In this document: piece by piece, positions 10,097 through 52,930 of the stretch
Layout: the number at the start of each line of letters is the position of its first letter
Position numbering within the stretch: position 1 is the first letter of the stretch
Source: an uncultured Acidobacteriota bacterium
Lineage (GTDB): Bacteria > Acidobacteriota > Terriglobia > Acidiferrales > UBA7541
DNA length: 64,000 bases
Reading direction: 5' to 3'
NCBI GenBank assembly: GCA_963753745.1
Contig: CAVWDX010000011.1
Location: 81,071-145,070, forward strand
Notes under the pieces: model-generated
Told to the model about the DNA's origin: nothing
The model's input: the letters and a program-made list of their open reading frames with translations, nothing else
Databases searched by the model: none
Position numbers and translations under genes: made by a program

Positions 10097-11338
10097 CGCT
10101 GGATGGCGGATCATCTTCGCGCCGCGGGTTTCCAGAAAATTGAAATTGTTCCGACGAATCTCCACCCCCTTGTTTATGCCGAATCTCTCGAAGCTCCCGG
10201 CAAGCCTACCGTCCTCTTTTACGGGCACTATGACGTGCAGCCCGCGGAACCACTCGACCTTTGGACTTCGCCCGCGTTCGAACCTACGGTTCGCAGCGGC
10301 AACTTATTCGGCCGCGGCACTGCCGACGACAAAGGCCAGGTGCACATCCATTTGAAAGCGCTCGAATCCATTCAGAAAGTGAATGGTAAGCTGCCCATCA
10401 ACGTCAAAGTCCTGATCGAAGGCGAAGAAGAGGTCGGCAGCGTCAGCCTCTGGGACTATGTGCAAAAAAACAAGGAAAAACTCAAAGCCGACGCGCTCAT
10501 CGTATCCGACACATCCATGCTCGCGAAGGGCGTGCCTTCCATCACCTACGGATTGCGTGGATTGAATTACTATCAGATTGAACTCACCGGCCCCGTACGC
10601 GATCTTCATTCCGGCGTATATGGAGGCGCGGTTCCCAATCCGTTGACGATTCTCGCCGAGCTCTTCGCCAAACTTCACGATAAGAATTTCCGCGTCACGG
10701 TTCCGGGTTTCTACGATAAAGTTGCAAAAGTCTCCGCGCCCGAACGCAAGGCGTTGAATGCGCTGCCCTGGAAGAAAAAGGCATTTGAAGAAGCCGTCGG
10801 CGCTCCGGGTTATGCCGGCGAAAAAGGCTTCTCGATTGTTGAGCAACTCTGGACGCGGCCAACCCTCGAGTTGAACGGGATATGGGGCGGCTATCAAGGC
10901 GAAGGCGCGAAAACCGTGATCCCGTCAAAGGCCTTCGCGAAATTTTCAACGCGCCTCGTTCCCAACCAGGAACCACTCGCTATCGCGAAACTTGTAGAAA
11001 AGCATATTCGCAAACTTTTGCCGAAAACTGTCAAGTGCAAGTTCGAAGTGCTCAGCACCGGCAAGCCGTGGGTTGCGCCATTCCACGCGCCAATTTTCAA
11101 AATTGCTCAGGGTGCTCTCGAGAAAGGCTTCGGGAAGAAAGCGGTTTTCATTCGCGAAGGCGGATCGATCCCTTTCGTGACGCAAATGTACGATACGTTC
11201 AAAGTCCCCTGCGTGCTCCTCGGTTTCGGCCTCCCCGACGAAAACGCGCACGCCCCCGACGAGCACATCGCCCTCGAAAATTATTTCGGCGGCATCAAAG
11301 CCATCGCCCACTTTTACATGGATCTCTCCGCGCTTTGA
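9974..11338 (+). CDS. M20A-family dipeptidase (ArgE/DapE/CNDP2-like)
   Basis: YGHYDVQP, GRGTADDKGQ, EGEEEVGS, DLHSG, GGSIP, HAPDE motifs. Confidence 0.9.
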   Translation: MNLAEFIETNRDKHLAELCEFLRIPSVSAKSEHKPDIERAARWMADHLRAAGFQKIEIVPTNLHPLVYAESLEAPGKPTVLFYGHYDVQPAEPLDLWTSPAFEPTVRSGNLFGRGTADDKGQVHIHLKALESIQKVNGKLPINVKVLIEGEEEVGSVSLWDYVQKNKEKLKADALIVSDTSMLAKGVPSITYGLRGLNYYQIELTGPVRDLHSGVYGGAVPNPLTILAELFAKLHDKNFRVTVPGFYDKVAKVSAPERKALNALPWKKKAFEEAVGAPGYAGEKGFSIVEQLWTRPTLELNGIWGGYQGEGAKTVIPSKAFAKFSTRLVPNQEPLAIAKLVEKHIRKLLPKTVKCKFEVLSTGKPWVAPFHAPIFKIAQGALEKGFGKKAVFIREGGSIPFVTQMYDTFKVPCVLLGFGLPDENAHAPDEHIALENYFGGIKAIAHFYMDLSAL

Positions 11339-13177: not shown

Positions 13178-13209
13178 AGTGAGTAGTGGGCAGTGAATAG
13201 TGAGTAGTG
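13178..13209 (+). repeat. degenerate heptamer tandem repeat (AGTGRNN)n
   Basis: AGTGAGT AGTGGGC AGTGAAT AGTGAGT AGTG; similar arrays near 14776 and at 19190-19219. Confidence 0.6.
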
Positions 13210-14692: not shown

Positions 14693-14956
14693 CGATCCCC
14701 CGGAGTGAAGTGAGCCCGCAACATGAAGCTCGGGCTCCCTGCGTGGAGTGCCGGGATTGTAGCCGAGGAAATGGCTAGTGGCGAGTGGTGAGTTCAGGCC
14801 GGAAAATCTATCCGACTTGTCGGACGGATGGGAAACGTGGGTACAGCTCCGGTGTTTTGCGAGAGAGTGATCTGTAGCGAGAGAAACCTCCAGGTGCCGA
14901 ATATGCCTGGGTGTTTTGTACGGGGCGGCGAAAGACCATGCTGGCGCGCGAACGCG

Positions 14957-16176: not shown

Positions 16177-18311
16177 GTGAGGAAGACATATTTGGGCGTG
16201 GCGGCGATCGCGATGATGGCGGGAGGAGTGTGCGCGGGGACGGCGCAGAACGTCTGGGCGCAGAAGCCGCCGCTTTTGGCGGAGAAGGATGTGGCGGCTT
16301 TGGCGAACGAGCTGAGCGGAGAGACGGCGAAGAGGAATTTGGAGATGATCGCGACGTTTCATAGGCAGCGCGGGTCGAAGGGATTTCATGCGGCGGCCGA
16401 GCTCGTGGCGGAGCGGGCGCGGGAGTATGGGCTGAGCGATGTGCAGATATTGGAGTTTCCGGCGGATGGGAAGATTTTTTATGGGACGCAGAGGTCGCGG
16501 CCGGCTTGGGATGCGGAGGTGGGGGAGCTTTGGGAACTCGACTCGGTTGGGACGGGTTGCTATGAGGCCGCGCATAAGAAACCGCAATCAGACGAGGAAG
16601 CACGCAAGGTGTTGGCTGTCTTGCTGAAAGAGGAATGCGATCCAAAGCTCCATCAGCGGCTTCTCGCAAGTTATGCGGCGGAGCCGGTGGTGCTGTCGGA
16701 GGATAGCGAGTCGGCGGATGTCACGGCGGAATTGGTGGATGTAGGTGACGGGACGAAGGAGAGCGATTACGCGGGGAAAGACGTTAAGGGAAAGATTGTG
16801 CTGGTGAGCGCGTCGCCGGGGGCGGCGCAGGAATTGGCGGTGGGGAAGTTTGGGGCGGTGGGGATTGTGAGTTATCAACAGAACCAGAAGAACGCTTGGT
16901 GGGGTGAGGACGAGAATTTGATTCGGTGGGGACATTTGGAGACGTTTTCATCTAACAAGACTTTTGCGTTTATGGTGTCGCTGAAGACGGCGTGGGGGAT
17001 GCGCGAACGTTTGGCTCGCGGGGAGAAGATTACGCTGCATGCGGTGGTGAAGGCGGGGCAGCATGCGGGGAATTATGAGGTGGTGACGGCGACGATTCCG
17101 GGGGCGGATGCGAAGTTGAAGGACGAGGAGATTGCGTTTTCGTGCCACCTGGATCATCAGCGGCCGGGAGCGAATGACAATGCCAGCGGATGCGTGACGA
17201 TTTTGGAGGTGGCGCGGACTTTGCAGAAGTTGATTGCGGAGGGGAAATTGGCGCGGCCGGCGCGGACGATACGGTTTATTTGGCCGCCGGAGATTGAGGG
17301 GACGATCGCGCTGCTCAACGCGAAGCGGGAGTTTGCGCGGCGGATCAAAGGGCGATTCACATGGACATGGTAGGCGGAGGGCCGGCGACGAAGGCAGTGT
17401 TCCACGTGACACGCGGGCCGATGAGCTTGCCGTCGTTTGTGCATGACGTGGCGTGGGCGTTTGCGGAGTTGGTGAACGAGGAGTCGTACCAATTCGCGGC
17501 GACGGGGAAGGCGGAGTATCCGATGGTGGCGCCGGAGGGCGGGAAGGAGCCGCTGCGGGCGGAGTATTCGGCGTACACGATGGGGAGCGACCACGACGTG
17601 TATCAGGATTCGTCGTTCGGGATACCGGCGATTTATTTGAATGACTGGCCGGACCGGTACATTCATACGAATTTCGATACGGCGGCGAATATTGATACGA
17701 CAAAATTGAAGAGGGCGGCGTTTATTGGGGCGGCTAGCGGGTATTTTTTGGCGGGGATTAATGAGAAGTCTTTGCCGGAACTCCACACCGTAGTCCAGCA
17801 GGGAAATGACATGGAGACGGCATCAGACGAACCGAGGATAAGCAGTCTGCCGCCGGAGGATGCCGCGTGTATTGCAGATATTCGAGCGCAAGCGAATTGG
17901 AGGACGGAGCTGGGAATCGCGTCGTTTCTGCATTCAGATTTGGCGAACGGGCGCACGGAGGCGCATCCCAAGGTGTGCGCGGAAGAAATGGCACGGTCCA
18001 AGGAAGGTGACAGTCGTTTTCGACGGGAAGGGCAGCCGAAGGGGCCAATGGCCGTGTTTGGGTATGACTATTCCGAGGCGGAGTGGAAGAAGTTGGGGCA
18101 GGTCCGCCAGCCGAGGCTGCTGGAATATCAGGGATTGTGGGGAGGTGGAGAAGAGTATGCGTATGAGGCTTTGAATTTTACGGACGGAGTGCTTAACGCT
18201 CAGCAGATACGCGACCGAGTTTCGGTGGAGTATGGGCCGGTGCCATTGGAGATGGTAGTGGAGTATTTGAAGGCACTGGAAAAGATTGGAGTGGTGAGTG
18301 AGGTGAAATGA
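16177..18311 (+). pseudogene. M28-family aminopeptidase with PA domain, frameshifted near 17350
   Basis: ORF 16156-17373 (PA domain, CHLDH, GANDNASG, WPPEIEG) continues into 17361-18311 (MDMVGG, SDHDVY, DRYIHT) if one base is restored in ATCAAAGGGCGATTCAC (expected IKAAIHMDMVG); may be a sequencing error. Confidence 0.75.
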
Positions 18312-18318
18312 GGGGTTT

Positions 18319-18489
18319 GTGGCGCAGGCTTCAGCCTGTGCAGACGTAGGGAGTTGGCAAGCGTGATCCGCGAGTGCCAGCTGTTTGCACTGGAGAGGCA
18401 CCCAACGCAAGGGACGAAACGAAGTCAACATCGACAAACGGATCAGCCAGAGCTGGGTTGAAGCTAGCACAGACTGAAGTCTGTGCCAC
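18319..18489. repeat. inverted pair of REP elements (REPIN/BIME-like)
   Basis: GTGGCGCAGGCTTCAGCCTGTGC (18319-18341) and GCACAGACTGAAGTCTGTGCCAC (18467-18489) in opposite orientation. Confidence 0.75.
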
Positions 18490-18496
18490 TTCGGAG

Positions 18497-19933
18497 ATGA
18501 GCTTGACAATTGCGGAGAGGATCGAGAGGTTGCCGCTGGGGGGATTTCACCGGCGGTTTATCGGGCTGGTGTCGCTGGGGAATTTTTTTGATTTGTACGA
18601 CATTTTCATTGTGGCGTACATCGGCGCGGCTTTGCAGCAGTCCGGTTTTATTTCCCTGAGACAATTTACGTTTTTTGTGGCGGCGGGATTTTTGGGGATG
18701 TTTGTGGGGACGGTCGTGTTCGGGATGGGCAGCGACCGGATGGGGCGGCGGAGCGCGTTTGTTTTGCTGCTGCTGATTTATTCGGTGTTTACGTTTGCGG
18801 ATGCGTTTGCGGTTTCGGCGGCGTGGCTGATTGGGTTGCGGTTTTTTGCGGGGATTGGGATTGGCGCGGAAATTGTGGTAGTGGATACGTACGTCACGGA
18901 AGTGGTGCCGAGCTACGCGCGCGGACGGTACGTGGCAATTACGCAGGTAGCGGGATTTTGCGCGGTGCCCGTGGCGGCGGTGCTTTCGCGGGTGCTGGTG
19001 CCGACGCATTTTTGGATGAGCGGGTGGAGATGGGTGATGGTGATTGGAGCGTCGGGGGCGCTGCTGACTTGGTGGTTCCGACGGAGATTGCCGGAATCGC
19101 CGAGATGGTTGGAGAGCAGGGGACGGGCGGCGGAGGCGGACGCGATTATGTCGGGGCTGGAGAATGAGTCGTTTTCTGGTACGGGAAGAAGTGGCGAGCG
19201 GCGAGTGACGAGTGGCGAGAAGGAAAAGAAAAGCAAATCCCTTCCGACAGAGTCGGAACCTTCGGTCGCTTCGCTCGGGATGACAGAAAAACAAAACGGG
19301 ATGAGGAACACGGACGGCCGGGAGGGGAAAGGATCGTTTGGGGAGTTGTGGAGGCGGCCTTATCTGTCGCGGACGGTGATGCTGGTGATTTTTCAGGCGT
19401 TGCAGACGATCGGGTTTTATGGATTTGCGAATTGGGCGCCAACGTTTTTACTGAAGAGGGGAGTTTCGCTGCTGCATTCGCTGGAGTACACGATGTTGAT
19501 CGCGCTGGTGTCGCCCGTGGGACCGCTGCTGGCGGCCTGGACGGCGGACCGGTTCGAACGGAAATGGACGATTGTGGTGCTGGCGTTGATGGTGGCTGGA
19601 CTTGGAATTGGATTTGGGAATTCGATTGCGCCCGCGGCAGTCGTAGGATTTGGGGCGCTTTTGACGCTGGCGAATTATTGGTTTTCAGCGGCGTTTCATG
19701 CGTACCAAGCGGAATTGTTTCCAACGCGATTGCGCGGGACGGGCGTAGGGTTTACGTATAGCTGGAGCCGGTTGAGCGCGGCGTTTAGTTCGATTTTGAT
19801 CGGGGCGGTTTTGGTGCATGGAGTGCCAGCGGTGTTTGCGATGCTGGCAGTGGCGATGGGATTGGCGGCCCTTGTGGTGGCAACAATGGGGCCAGCGACA
19901 AATCGGATGGTGTTGGAGGAGATTTCGGGGTGA
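18497..19933 (+). CDS. MFS transporter (sugar porter / aromatic acid:H+ symporter-like) with a repeat-derived insert in the central loop
   Basis: FFDLYD, GSDRMGRR, GIGAE, LPESPRWL, AELFPTRLRGTG motifs; ATG 18497 preferred over the ORF-track start. Confidence 0.88.
   Translation: MSLTIAERIERLPLGGFHRRFIGLVSLGNFFDLYDIFIVAYIGAALQQSGFISLRQFTFFVAAGFLGMFVGTVVFGMGSDRMGRRSAFVLLLLIYSVFTFADAFAVSAAWLIGLRFFAGIGIGAEIVVVDTYVTEVVPSYARGRYVAITQVAGFCAVPVAAVLSRVLVPTHFWMSGWRWVMVIGASGALLTWWFRRRLPESPRWLESRGRAAEADAIMSGLENESFSGTGRSGERRVTSGEKEKKSKSLPTESEPSVASLGMTEKQNGMRNTDGREGKGSFGELWRRPYLSRTVMLVIFQALQTIGFYGFANWAPTFLLKRGVSLLHSLEYTMLIALVSPVGPLLAAWTADRFERKWTIVVLALMVAGLGIGFGNSIAPAAVVGFGALLTLANYWFSAAFHAYQAELFPTRLRGTGVGFTYSWSRLSAAFSSILIGAVLVHGVPAVFAMLAVAMGLAALVVATMGPATNRMVLEEISG
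19190..19285 (+). repeat. heptamer array plus a 57-nt dispersed repeat inside the MFS coding sequence
   Basis: AGTGGCG AGCGGCG AGTGACG AGTGGCG, then 19229-19285, which is 54/57 identical to intergenic 52874-52930. Confidence 0.9.
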
Positions 19934-20015
19934 GAAACGAAGGAAGATTGAACGCCAAGGCTGAAGATCTCAGATAGACAGTTCTCGCGAACGGCGCTTT
20001 CAGCAAGATAGAAGA

Positions 20016-20038
20016 GCACAGGCTGAAGCCTGTGCCAC
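20016..20038. repeat. REP-like hairpin
   Basis: GCACAGGC-TGAA-GCCTGTGC-CAC, same family as 16093, 18319 and 18467. Confidence 0.75.
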
Positions 20039-20089
20039 TGGCGGGTGTGCTAGCATCGGGGATTGTGTTTTGAGCGAGGGTCGAAGTAG

Positions 20090-21147
20090 ATGGCGACGAC
20101 GATGAACGCACTCCGGAAGATGCGTGCCGGACGCGGGTTGTCGATGGAAACGGAGCCGGTGCCCGCGATTGGCGCGGGAGACGTGCTCGTACGCGTGAAG
20201 ACGGCATCGATCTGCGGCACGGATCTGCATATTTATGGATGGGACCGGTGGTCGCAAGGACGGATCAAGCCGCCATTGACGCTGGGGCACGAGTTTTGCG
20301 GTGATCGTCGAGCGCGTGGGCGAGGAAGTGACGGCGGTGAAGGCGGGGGACTTTCGTCAGCGCGGAGATGCATGTGAATTGCGGGCACTGCCACCAGTGC
20401 CGGCTGGGCGAAGCGCATATTTGCCAAAATCTACGGATCATCGGGATCGATCAGGATGGGGCATTCGCGGAGTTTGTGAAGATCCCCGCGTCCAACATCT
20501 GGAAACTTGACTCGGCCATCCCCGAACATTACGGCGCGATTCTCGATCCCCTCGGAAACGCAGTGCATACCGTGCTGGCGGGACCGATCGCGGGGCAGAC
20601 GGTACTGGTGACGGGATGCGGACCGATCGGGTTGATGTCCATCGCCGTGGCGAAGGCATGCGGTAGCTCGACAGTGTTTGCGACGGAGACGAACGAGAAC
20701 CGGCGCGCGATGGCGAAAAAAATGGGCGCTGACGTGGTACTGAATCCCGCGGGGGAAGACGCGGTTGCAAGAATTTTGAGCGCGACGGACGGCACAGGTG
20801 TGGATGCGCTGCTGGAGATGAGCGGGAATCCCACGGCCATCCAGCAAGGGTTTAAAGCGCTGCGGGCGGGTGGCCGAGCATCGCTGCTGGGGATACCCAC
20901 GGAAAACGTGCCGCTGGATTTGGTGAACGACGTGATTTTCAAGGGCGCGACCGTGCAGGGAATTTACGGGCGGCGAATGTATGGGACATGGGTGCAGATG
21001 ACGGCGCTGCTGAAGGCGGGGCGGCTGAATTTGGAGCCGCTGTTTGGGGAACGAGAGCCGCTGGAAAAGTTTGAGAATGCGTTTGCAAAATTGCAGGGCG
21101 GGTTGGCGGGGAAGATTTTGCTCTATCCGAACGGAATGCCGCGCTAA
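20090..21147 (+). pseudogene. tdh: L-threonine 3-dehydrogenase with two +1 frameshifts (about 20303 and 20355)
   Basis: ICGTDLHIY and GHEFCG in frame 1; IVERVGEEVTAVKAGDF in frame 2; VSAEMHVNCGHCHQC...GCGPIG in frame 3; adjacent to kbl. May be sequencing errors. Confidence 0.85.
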
Positions 21148-52538: not shown

Positions 52539-52873
52539 GGGAGTTGCGGCGAATATTATGGGACGCGGAAAATTGTTGTGGGAAACGAGTGGGCGGGGTG
52601 CGGGCAGCGAGGAGTGTGGCGACGAGAACATGGGGAAGGATACCATGGATTCTCATTACTGTCAAGGACTATTATTGAGTGTATATCATTCGAACGTGAG
52701 ACGGGAAACTGGAGTGGTTTGAAGCGGTTGGCGGGAATTTGGGAGTTTGGTGAGACGGTGGAAAAGTCAAAAGCCCCACATATAAAAACGATACATGGGG
52801 CACCCGATTATTAGCGCTCTGGTTGCTTTTGCATGAAACTGAGGACCGACCGCTACATAATCGACGAAAAGAA

Positions 52874-52930
52874 AAAAGCAGATCCCTTCCGACAGGGTCG
52901 GAACCTTCGGTCGCTGCGCTCGGGATGACA
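52874..52930 (+). repeat. dispersed repeat AAAAGCAGATCCC...TCGCTGCGCTCGGGATGACA
   Basis: 54/57 identical to 19229-19285; internal TCCGAC-N3-GTCGGA hairpin. Confidence 0.9.

What the first reader, a model, noticed from the sequence alone, without database searches (positions are those of the whole stretch)
19190..19330. Intergenic repeat elements inserted in frame inside an MFS transporter
Seen: the central loop (SGERRVTSGEKEKKSKSLPTESEPSVASLGMT) is encoded by a heptamer array like those near 13178 and 14776, plus a 57-nt element 54/57 identical to intergenic 52874-52930; the frame stays open. Known: Rickettsia palindromic elements are a precedent for small repeats becoming coding sequence. 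Inference: the same process may act in Acidobacteriota, creating new peptide sequence in a tolerant cytoplasmic loop, and high identity implies it is recent.
Basis: partly seen in the sequence, partly recalled or inferred. Interest (0 to 1): 0.65.

Follow-up and report, generated by a model that had tools for sequence, protein, structure and literature searches.

The report
Repeat DNA translated inside transporter loop
A soil Acidobacteriota (Candidatus Acidoferrum) transporter gene carries about 100 bases of ordinary intergenic repeat DNA, read in frame as a floppy central loop; relatives carry different mixes of the same repeat modules at that spot, so it is a clear new example of a behaviour already known from Rickettsia and other bacteria.

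Summary
Window 19190-19285, inside an MFS transporter gene (18503-19933, +), holds three parts:
- a GTGGCGA-type heptamer array;
- an A-rich linker;
- a REP-like palindromic repeat that contains a nested 24-nt hairpin.

The 62-nt stretch is 92% identical to the intergenic copy at 52869-52930 (0 of 100 shuffles match).

The repeat family has about 39 copies in this genome. Its short core occurs in 38 of 41 genomes of the order, and its stem covaries between copies.

The gene is under strong purifying selection (dN/dS 0.06-0.12). In 115 orthologs of 80-99% identity, the central loop is a mosaic of the same few repeat modules in different combinations, always in frame. This holds even between proteins whose flanks are 98.8% identical.

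Only the 24-nt hairpin (19242-19265) separates this gene from its nearest relative with available DNA. That module is confined to a few close species. So the "recent insertion" applies to the hairpin only, not to the whole block.

Orthologous repeat copies stay about 90% identical at dS of about 0.48, so identity is not a clock here.

Four other genes in this genome carry in-frame copies: pheT, an MtaB-like methylthiotransferase, a nucleotidyltransferase and a dnaE2-like gene.

This is a new member of a known kind, alongside Rickettsia palindromic elements and intragenic REPs. How the modules move is unknown.

The parts
18503..19933 (+). MFS transporter gene (Sugar_tr/MFS_1). Probable TTG start at 18503 (476 aa); an alternative ATG lies at 18497 (478 aa, P0001).
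   Evidence: ORF and translation; Pfam; 476-aa near-identical database protein and ortholog N-termini; dN/dS 0.06-0.12 against orthologs.
19190..19219 (+). Module H1: GTGGCGA-type heptamer array, 4.3 units, read as GRSGERRVTSGE.
   Evidence: TRF; 12 arrays of this family in the genome, 5 of them within 200 nt of a REP core; present at the same place in G008, G003 and G022 DNA and in most orthologs.
19220..19236 (+). A-rich linker (AAGGAAAAGAAAAGCAA), the usual 5' leader of the REP ('AAAAGCAGAT...').
   Evidence: The same leader precedes most genomic copies.
19237..19241 (+). 5' arm of the REP outer stem (ATCCC), which pairs with GGGAT at 19277-19281.
   Evidence: Fold; the two arms covary across hundreds of copies in 38 of 41 genomes.
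19242..19265 (+). Nested 24-nt hairpin module TTCCGACAGAGTCGGAACCTTCGG (7-bp stem), read as PTESEPSV. This is the only indel against the nearest relative.
   Evidence: Exact 24-nt gap in L065; the same 24-nt indel at the same REP position in pheT; the module is confined to G000, G008 and G012 plus a few copies elsewhere; fold z = -2.0.
19266..19285 (+). REP loop, 3' arm and tail (TCGCTTCGCTC GGGAT GACA), read as ASLGMT.
19286..19306 (+). Possible remnant of a second REP 3' half (GAAAAACAAAACGGGATGAGG, read as EKQNGMR).
   Evidence: Conserved in L065 and G008; several orthologs show tandem 'LGMT...NGMT'. The assignment is an inference.
52869..52930 (+). Intergenic copy of the long REP (leader + REP + nested hairpin), 92% identical to 19224-19285.
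14772..14793 (+). Intergenic GTGGCGA-family heptamer array.
13192..13209 (+). Intergenic heptamer array of a related type (AGTGAAT/AGTGAGT).

Best explanation
**What it is.** The central cytoplasmic loop of this MFS transporter is built from selfish-type intergenic repeat DNA that is translated in frame. Three modules sit in a row: a GTGGCGA heptamer array, an A-rich leader with a REP-like palindrome (ATYCC-TCGCTNCGCTC-GGRAT-GACA), and a 24-nt hairpin nested in the loop of that palindrome.

**Order of events (inferred).**
- The composite entered the loop in an ancestor of a subclade of Candidatus Acidoferrum.
- Since then the site has behaved as a mutational hot spot. Modules of the same few repeat families are gained, lost or exchanged, presumably by hairpin- or slippage-mediated indels, copying from other genomic copies, or re-insertion.
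- Selection removes every variant that breaks the frame, because the transporter is needed.
- The latest change in this lineage is the gain of the 24-nt hairpin.

**Effect on the protein.** The extra peptide is most likely a tolerated passenger in a disordered linker. The sequence conservation of the repeat lies at the nucleic-acid level.

**Shown and inferred.** Shown: the composition, the in-frame state, selection on the gene, module turnover among orthologs, parallel cases in other genes, and the restricted distribution of the 24-nt module. Inferred: the order of events, the turnover mechanism, and neutrality of the peptide.
For: - **Repeat identity and copy number.** Searches show about 39 copies in the genome, in short, long and other nested variants.
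- **Recurrent composite.** A composite of H1 array plus REP recurs at about 5 loci.
- **The gene is functional.** dN/dS is 0.06-0.12 against six close orthologs and 0.12 against G010 (G001 is saturated). All loop length differences are multiples of 3. Six of six orthologous loci found by six-frame search are open.
- **Ortholog DNA carries different module sets at the same site**: G022 has H1 only, G012 has a CACAGAG array only, G008 has H1 + CACAGAG array + short REP, and G003 has H1 plus another REP variant.
- **Loops are mosaics of the same modules in 115 orthologs**. Minimum changes on the flank tree are 16-20 per module. Proteins with 98.8% identical flanks have different loops.
- **The 24-nt module.** An exact 24-nt indel separates this gene from L065. 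The same indel occurs in pheT. The short REP is order-wide with covarying stem arms, while the 24-nt module is confined to G000, G008 and G012 plus a few copies elsewhere.
- **The composite is compatible with translation.** Five of its six frames are stop-free.
- **Other genes are affected too.** In-frame copies lie in other orientations and frames in pheT, an MtaB-like gene, an NTP_transferase gene and the PHP domain of a dnaE2-like gene. They are absent from 8-10 other genomes of the genus.
- **Location in the protein.** The insert lies in an unstructured stretch (residues 227-280) between two blocks of six helices.
Against: - **No transposition signature was found.** There is no target-site duplication at the 24-nt indel. 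There are no terminal inverted repeats around the composite. The two Y1_Tnp (RAYT-like) genes are flanked by a different palindrome. The mobility mechanism is therefore open.
- **The loop may not be a pure passenger.** Its DNA is more conserved between G000 and L065 (about 86% by hand count) than expected for neutral sites at dS 0.39. Some constraint or homogenisation acts on it.
- **The tree is weak.** The ortholog tree is a quick protein tree of closely related sequences, and the module regexes are approximate (the H1 pattern found 83 of 115, fewer than the loop list suggests). The change counts may overstate homoplasy.
- **The structure model has low confidence** (mean pLDDT 51).
- **The assembly has at least one probable indel error** (pheT).
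Confidence: 0.85

Rival explanations
1. The repeat block has a function of its own inside the mRNA or the protein. Examples would be a structured RNA that pauses translation between the two six-helix halves, or a selected regulatory linker peptide. On this view it is kept for that reason and is not a tolerated passenger.
For: The loop DNA is more conserved than synonymous sites. The REP stem covaries. Some repeat module sits in this loop in nearly all close orthologs.
Against: Module content differs even between orthologs with 98.8% identical flanks, and minimal loops of 29-35 aa exist. Orthologs at 70% identity and paralogs have unrelated loops. The same DNA is read in other frames and orientations in pheT, the MtaB-like gene and the NTP_transferase gene, so no common peptide is conserved. 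Folding energies are not exceptional (z = -0.01 to -0.6 for the REP). There is no Rfam match.
Confidence: 0.1
2. Each loop variant is an independent fresh insertion of a mobile composite element into a preferred target (a 'landing pad'), not in-place remodelling of one old insertion.
For: Long REP carriers are scattered on the ortholog tree: 6 changes for 7 carriers. Composites of the same architecture (H1 + REP, CACAGAG array + REP) occur between genes. The same subclade has variable inserts at identical sites in four genes.
Against: The H1 array and the downstream 'NGM' remnant are shared in register between G000, L065 and G008, which argues for inheritance of the block. No target duplication or empty-site scar was seen. 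The two models are not exclusive.
Confidence: 0.25
3. The resemblance is an artefact: chance similarity of a low-complexity linker, metagenome misassembly at repeats, or intergenic copies that are decayed fragments of this gene.
For: The genome is a 32-contig assembly with at least one likely frameshift error. The loop is compositionally biased.
Against: 0 of 100 shuffles reproduce the match. An independent 1-Mb contig encodes the identical loop (P0002, with 13 member sequences). All orthologs keep both transporter halves around the loop. The REP core is order-wide with hundreds of intergenic copies and 0 hits for the reversed control pattern.
Confidence: 0.02

Closest known systems
Rickettsia palindromic elements (RPE; Ogata et al. 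2000 and 2002, as summarised in PMC10969869)
   Same: Short palindromic repeats found both between genes and in frame inside unrelated, functional genes. They add a peptide segment in tolerant surface or linker regions. Several genes per genome are affected.
   Different: The host here is an unrelated, free-living, GC-rich soil lineage. The unit is much shorter: a 27-nt REP core, about 51 nt with the nested hairpin and about 100 nt as a composite, against roughly 100-150 bp. The architecture is modular and mosaic, with heptamer arrays. No single conserved peptide results, because several frames and both orientations are used. Content varies strongly between orthologs.
Intragenic GTAG-/CGTC-tagged REPs (Di Nocera et al. 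2013, PMC3733652)
   Same: REP singles, dimers and clusters are translated inside genes. That paper lists DnaE2 and tRNA synthetase genes among the hosts, and both gene types are hit here too (a dnaE2-like gene and pheT). Most copies are intergenic.
   Different: This REP carries neither a GTAG nor a CGTC tag at its stem end. It is not the palindrome that flanks this genome's Y1 transposase genes. It also carries a lineage-specific nested 24-nt hairpin.
BIMEs, the mosaic REP-containing elements of enterobacteria (from my own knowledge, not checked here)
   Same: They are mosaic combinations of a palindromic unit with a small set of other short motifs, arranged differently at different loci.
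   Different: BIMEs are extragenic. Here the mosaics are also read as protein, and they include heptamer tandem arrays.
Intragenic ERIC and other MITE insertions that make in-frame fusions (Delihas 2007, cited in PMC10969869)
   Same: Small non-autonomous repeats with open frames are found inside genes and create new peptide segments.
   Different: No terminal inverted repeats or target-site duplications were detected here.

Membership tests
REP (repetitive extragenic palindrome) in the broad sense | Short (20-40 nt) imperfect palindrome able to form a stem-loop | tested here: met
   The 27-nt core folds as a 5-bp stem plus loop. The stem arms covary (GATTCT/AGAATC, GATCCT/AGGATC, GATCCC/GGGATC, GATTCC/GGAATC, GATGCT/AGCATC) in nearly all listed copies. 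Thermodynamic z-scores are not significant on their own.
REP (repetitive extragenic palindrome) in the broad sense | Many dispersed copies, mostly between genes | tested here: met
   About 39 copies in G000. About 34 are outside long conserved ORFs and 5 are in frame in genes. There are 2-156 pattern matches per genome in 38 of 41 genomes of the order.
GTAG- or CGTC-tagged REP superfamilies (PMC3733652) | GTAG or CGTC tetranucleotide at one end of the stem | tested here: not met
   The core AGATTCCTCGCTTCGCTCGGAATGACA has neither tag at its stem ends. The palindrome next to the Y1_Tnp genes (CCCCACACGTCGG...) does contain CGTC.
REP/REPIN mobilised by a RAYT (REPtron) | A Y1 (RAYT) transposase gene flanked by copies of the same REP | tested here: not met
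   Two Y1_Tnp matches (C17:10494, C28:39475) are flanked by a different palindrome, and no copy of this REP lies next to them. The genome is 93% complete, so a missed gene is possible.
MITE | Terminal inverted repeats and a target-site duplication | tested here: not met
   At the only clean indel (24 nt, G000 against L065) the junctions share at most 1 nt. The ~100-nt composite has no terminal inverted repeats. The boundaries of the original composite insertion cannot be defined, so this part is inconclusive.
Rickettsia palindromic elements (as a homologous family) | Sequence relatedness to RPE-1 to RPE-10 and a conserved encoded peptide | not tested
   No RPE sequences were compared. Length, host and use of several frames differ. 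The claim here is 'works like', not membership.
Major facilitator superfamily transporter (host gene) | Match to MFS_1/Sugar_tr over both six-helix halves | tested here: met
   Pfam MFS_1 8.7e-36 and Sugar_tr 2e-35 covering residues 26-477. The model shows 6 + 6 long helices (low-confidence model).

The most novel reading that the evidence does not exclude
The 24-nt hairpin (TTCCGACARGGTCGGAACCTTCGG) could be a very small mobile module in its own right. It would insert, without target duplication, specifically into the loop of an older order-wide REP. It would be currently active in a few Candidatus Acidoferrum species, including at REP copies that lie inside genes, and would be driven by an unidentified enzyme that is not the RAYT-like genes seen here. 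Certain protein loops (the MFS TM6-TM7 loop, pheT, the MtaB-like gene, the nucleotidyltransferase) would then be recurrent landing pads where repeat modules are written into proteins and erased again on short evolutionary time scales.
Probability: 0.2. Interest if true: 0.65.

Novelty: new member of a known kind. Interest (0 to 1): 0.4.

Why it matters
It documents, with an unusually deep set of orthologs (115 proteins at 80-99% identity, plus DNA from seven relatives), how intergenic repeat DNA becomes protein sequence in an abundant but uncultured group of soil bacteria. It also shows how that sequence is then reshuffled.

It shows that repeat identity cannot be used to date such insertions.

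It gives annotators a practical warning. Loop peptides such as 'SLASLGMT', 'VIPSEARNL', 'GEWRVTSGE' and 'IYTEGTE' in Acidobacteriota proteins are translated repeats, not domains.

The lineage-restricted 24-nt nested hairpin offers a tractable case for asking how such tiny modules spread.

Tried and rejected
- **Rfam.** A scan of 18200-20200 at E <= 1 found no family.
- **RAYT link.** Two Y1_Tnp genes were found, but they are flanked by another palindrome, so no link to this REP could be made.
- **Folding energy as evidence of structure.** Not significant for the 121-nt block (z = -0.29) or for the REP itself (z = -0.01 to -0.6). It is only marginal for the 24-nt hairpin (z = -2.0). The structural argument rests on covariation instead.
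- **AlphaFold2 with 44 close orthologs.** This gave a low-confidence model (pLDDT 51). I used only its secondary-structure pattern and ran no fold search.
- **DNA of P0007**, the long-REP ortholog that is 98.8% identical in its flanks to a short-REP one. It was not retrievable, so that pair could be compared only at protein level.
- **Direct repeats at the 24-nt indel.** The only nearby repeat (CCTTC) is spaced 19 nt apart, so slippage between its copies would remove 19 nt, not 24, and cannot explain the indel (hand analysis).
- **My first ORF extraction treated minus-strand loci as plus** and gave nonsense. This was corrected.
- **Pseudogene reading.** Rejected by dN/dS.

Full report
**1. The observation**

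The region lies inside one long open frame, 18374-19933 on the + strand. Its product matches Pfam MFS_1 (8.7e-36) and Sugar_tr (2e-35) over residues 26-477. The likely start is TTG 18503, giving MTIAERIE and 476 aa. That is the length of the 99%-identical database protein P0002 and fits the N-termini of orthologs.

The stretch 19235-19285 recurs at 52880-52930 with 3 mismatches, and none of 100 shuffles gave a second match. The repeat finder extends the pair to 62 nt at 92% identity. TRF calls a period-7 array at 19190-19219.

**2. What the repeats are**

I searched the whole genome (4.98 Mb in 32 contigs; the window is C11:81071-145070). This found about 39 copies of a REP-like unit whose short form is AGATTCC-TCGCTTCGCTC-GGAAT-GACA, usually preceded by an A/G-rich leader such as AAAAGCAG.

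Variants carry extra DNA nested in the loop. The MFS copy and about ten others carry TTCCGACARGGTCGGAACCTTCGG, a 24-nt unit with a perfect 7-bp hairpin. Five others carry an unrelated insert of about 60 nt.

The short core is present in 38 of 41 genomes of the order, with 2 to 156 pattern matches per genome. The reversed control pattern gives none. The two stem arms change together in nearly all listed copies (GATTCT/AGAATC, GATCCT/AGGATC, GATCCC/GGGATC and so on). Folding energies alone are unremarkable, so the evidence for structure is this covariation.

Heptamer arrays are common: 108 period-7 arrays of at least 2.9 units, against 28 of period 8. Twelve belong to the GTGGCGA family, and five of those lie within 200 nt of a REP core. 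Loci C23:3609, C28:19694 and C23:136164 repeat the architecture 'GTGGCGA array - A-rich leader - long REP' seen in the MFS gene. A second composite, 'CACAGAG array - leader - REP', is also recurrent (C10:359159, C23:164974, C23:174024). The heptamer array and the 57-nt element are therefore best read as parts of one modular composite.

Two further points:
- There is no Rfam match.
- Two Y1_Tnp (RAYT-like) genes exist, but they are flanked by a different palindrome.

**3. Orthologs**

A six-frame search of 40 related genomes found orthologs in six of them. G008, G003, G022 and G012 are 88-90% identical; G001 and G010 are 70%. All are open across the loop. The loop DNA at the same site differs in each:

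| Genome | Loop content |
|---|---|
| G000 (this window) | GTGGCGA array + long REP |
| G022 | GTGGCGA array only |
| G003 | GTGGCGA array + a different REP variant |
| G008 | GTGGCGA array + CACAGAG array + short REP + more |
| G012 | CACAGAG array only |
| G001, G010 | an unrelated loop |

Paralogs at about 42% identity have a short plain loop.

The protein database search returned 120 orthologs at 80-99% identity, 447 to 505 aa long. Sources name them Candidatus Acidoferrum or Acidiferrum. Their loops are mosaics of a handful of peptide modules that are direct translations of the repeat modules:

| Peptide module | Repeat DNA it translates |
|---|---|
| GRSGEWRVTSGE | GTGGCGA array |
| KRIYTEGTESAEGTEKKEK | CACAGAG array |
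| SRSLASLGMT | short REP |
| SLPTRSEPSVATLGMT | long REP |
| DRLKSVPP | the CACAGNCTGAAGNCTGTG palindrome that also flanks this gene |

Minimal loops of 29-35 residues also exist.

I built a tree from the flanks alone. On it the modules need at least 16 changes (CACAGAG array), 20 (REP) and 6 (long REP, 7 carriers). The module patterns used for this count are approximate. Proteins whose flanks are 98.8% identical (P0007 and P0017) still differ in REP form and downstream content.

**4. Selection and timing**

Outside the loop, dN/dS against the six close orthologs is 0.06-0.11. It is 0.12 against G010, and G001 is saturated at synonymous sites. Every loop length difference is a multiple of three. 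The gene is functional, and frame-breaking variants are evidently removed.

Against the nearest relative for which DNA could be fetched (L065, P0003; dS 0.39), the loop aligns in register. It differs by substitutions plus exactly one indel, the 24-nt hairpin at 19242-19265. The same 24-nt indel, at the same position within the REP, separates the pheT copies of G000 and G008 (long) from that of G012 (short).

The 24-nt module is confined to G000 (11 copies), G008 (18) and G012 (10), with one to three in four other genomes of the genus and one weak match (3 mismatches) in another genus. The short REP, by contrast, is order-wide. The polarity is therefore old REP, young nested hairpin.

The orthologous pheT REPs of G000 and G008 are about 90% identical (46 of 51 by hand count) at a species divergence of dS of about 0.48 (the G000-G008 value from the MFS flanks). 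Their immediate surroundings are 78% identical. Paralogous copies within G000 are 88-95% identical. Identity between copies therefore reflects constraint or homogenisation of the repeat, not recency.

**5. Other genes**

I tested each genomic copy for a spanning long ORF and then aligned orthologs.

| Gene | Peptide read from the repeat | Details |
|---|---|---|
| pheT | VILSQATEGSDLVGKNPG | Antisense long REP, inside the tRNA_synthFbeta domain |
| MtaB-like methylthiotransferase (UPF0004 + Radical_SAM) | VIPSEARI | In the interdomain linker; a second site holds other repeat families |
| NTP_transferase gene | VILSETKNPG ... HSPLATRHSPL | Antisense REP plus GTGGCGA array |
| dnaE2-like gene, PHP domain | REIPRSARNDG | Lies next to an imuB-like gene |

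In each of the first three genes the insert is present only in the same subclade (G000, G008, G012 and G003, plus G002 for the nucleotidyltransferase). Its content again differs between species, and it is absent from 8-10 other genomes of the genus.

Five of the six frames of the composite are free of stop codons, and at least four different frames are in use. So 5 of about 39 copies are coding. That is a strong depletion relative to coding density, and the survivors sit in variable linkers.

**6. Location in the protein**

AlphaFold2 with 44 close orthologs gave a low-confidence model (mean pLDDT 51). Its secondary structure shows six long helices, two short helices, a coil from 227 to 280 (pLDDT about 28-33), then six more long helices. 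The repeat-encoded residues (about 232-263) lie in that coil, which is the TM6-TM7 central loop. In MFS proteins this loop is cytoplasmic (established knowledge).

**7. Mechanism**

The best-supported reading has four steps:
- A repeat composite entered this linker in an ancestor of the subclade.
- The site has since been a hot spot where modules are added, deleted or replaced.
- Selection for an intact transporter filters for multiples of three and for stop-free frames.
- The peptide is a passenger.

How modules move is not shown. There is no target-site duplication at the 24-nt indel, no terminal inverted repeats, and no cognate RAYT. Hairpin-promoted replication slippage, template switching between copies, and an unidentified single-strand transposase all remain possible.

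A functional role for the element in the mRNA cannot be excluded. The loop is more conserved than synonymous sites (about 86% by hand count, against an expected value near 70%). But the extreme presence/absence variation argues against a fixed function.

**8. Comparison with what is known**

In-frame translation of palindromic repeats is well described for Rickettsia RPEs (review PMC10969869). It is also described for GTAG/CGTC-tagged REPs in several phyla, including in DnaE2 and tRNA synthetase genes (PMC3733652). This case works the same way.

It fails the membership tests for the tagged REP superfamilies, for RAYT-flanked REPtrons and for MITEs, and I did not compare it with RPE sequences. 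I found no paper describing these repeats in Acidobacteriota. Earlier notes of this scan report many similar in-frame palindromic repeats and 'landing-pad' loops in other Acidobacteriota genomes. Those notes are unchecked leads that agree with this picture and reduce its surprise.

**9. Verdict**

- Novelty: a new member of a known kind, with a well-resolved modular turnover and a lineage-specific nested 24-nt hairpin as the most interesting open point.
- Interest: 0.4.

Noticed in passing
window 18322-18342, 18467-18489 and 20016-20038: Three copies of another palindromic repeat (GCACAGNCTGAAGNCTGTGCCAC) bracket the MFS gene. One ends 13 nt before the probable TTG start. The same family is read in frame as 'DRLKSVPP' in the loop of some MFS orthologs and as 'PVAQAFLPV' in the MtaB-like gene.
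   Followed up: partly
G000:C12:74500-79300 (outside the window): A dnaE2-like gene sits next to an imuB-like (IMS_C) gene. It is split over four reading-frame segments and carries an in-frame REP in its PHP domain. A different palindrome (GGCACGATATATCGTGCCCC type) lies at one frame break, and there is an internal stop near a REP-like motif. It is either a pseudogene, an assembly error or a heavily repeat-decorated gene. PMC3733652 reports REPs in DnaE2 genes of other phyla.
   Followed up: partly
G000:C7, reverse strand, about 10631-10910 in reverse-complement coordinates: pheT has a frameshift between its N-terminal 91 residues and the rest. It lies at an A-run (GCAAAAACATCGG), which looks like an assembly indel in an essential gene. 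Frame arguments in this assembly therefore need ortholog support.
   Followed up: no
G000:C17:10406-10988 and C28:39475-39720: Two RAYT-like Y1_Tnp genes are flanked on both sides by a CGTC-containing palindrome (GGGGTGCCCCACACGTCGG...ACGTGTGGGG) and by GGCGGGTGGCCCGGAC motifs. This is a separate REP/REPtron system in the same genome. The C28 copy is interrupted by a stop.
   Followed up: partly
G008, G012 and G003 loci L052-L054 (MtaB-like gene, second insert site): Inside the radical-SAM domain, between 'EIRNL' and 'REIVLSGINLG', the relatives carry runs such as STSSTSCTSSTSSTSS, which look like another translated tandem array. All other genomes of the genus have no insert there.
   Followed up: no
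I did not examine whether the REP affects that promoter region.
   Followed up: no
whole genome G000: Period-7 tandem arrays are over-represented: 108 arrays of at least 2.9 units, against 28 of period 8 and 68 of period 9. They fall into a few families (GTGGCGA, GTGACTG, AGTGAGT, TTTCGAA types). This is reminiscent of cyanobacterial heptamer STRR repeats (a comparison from memory).
   Followed up: partly
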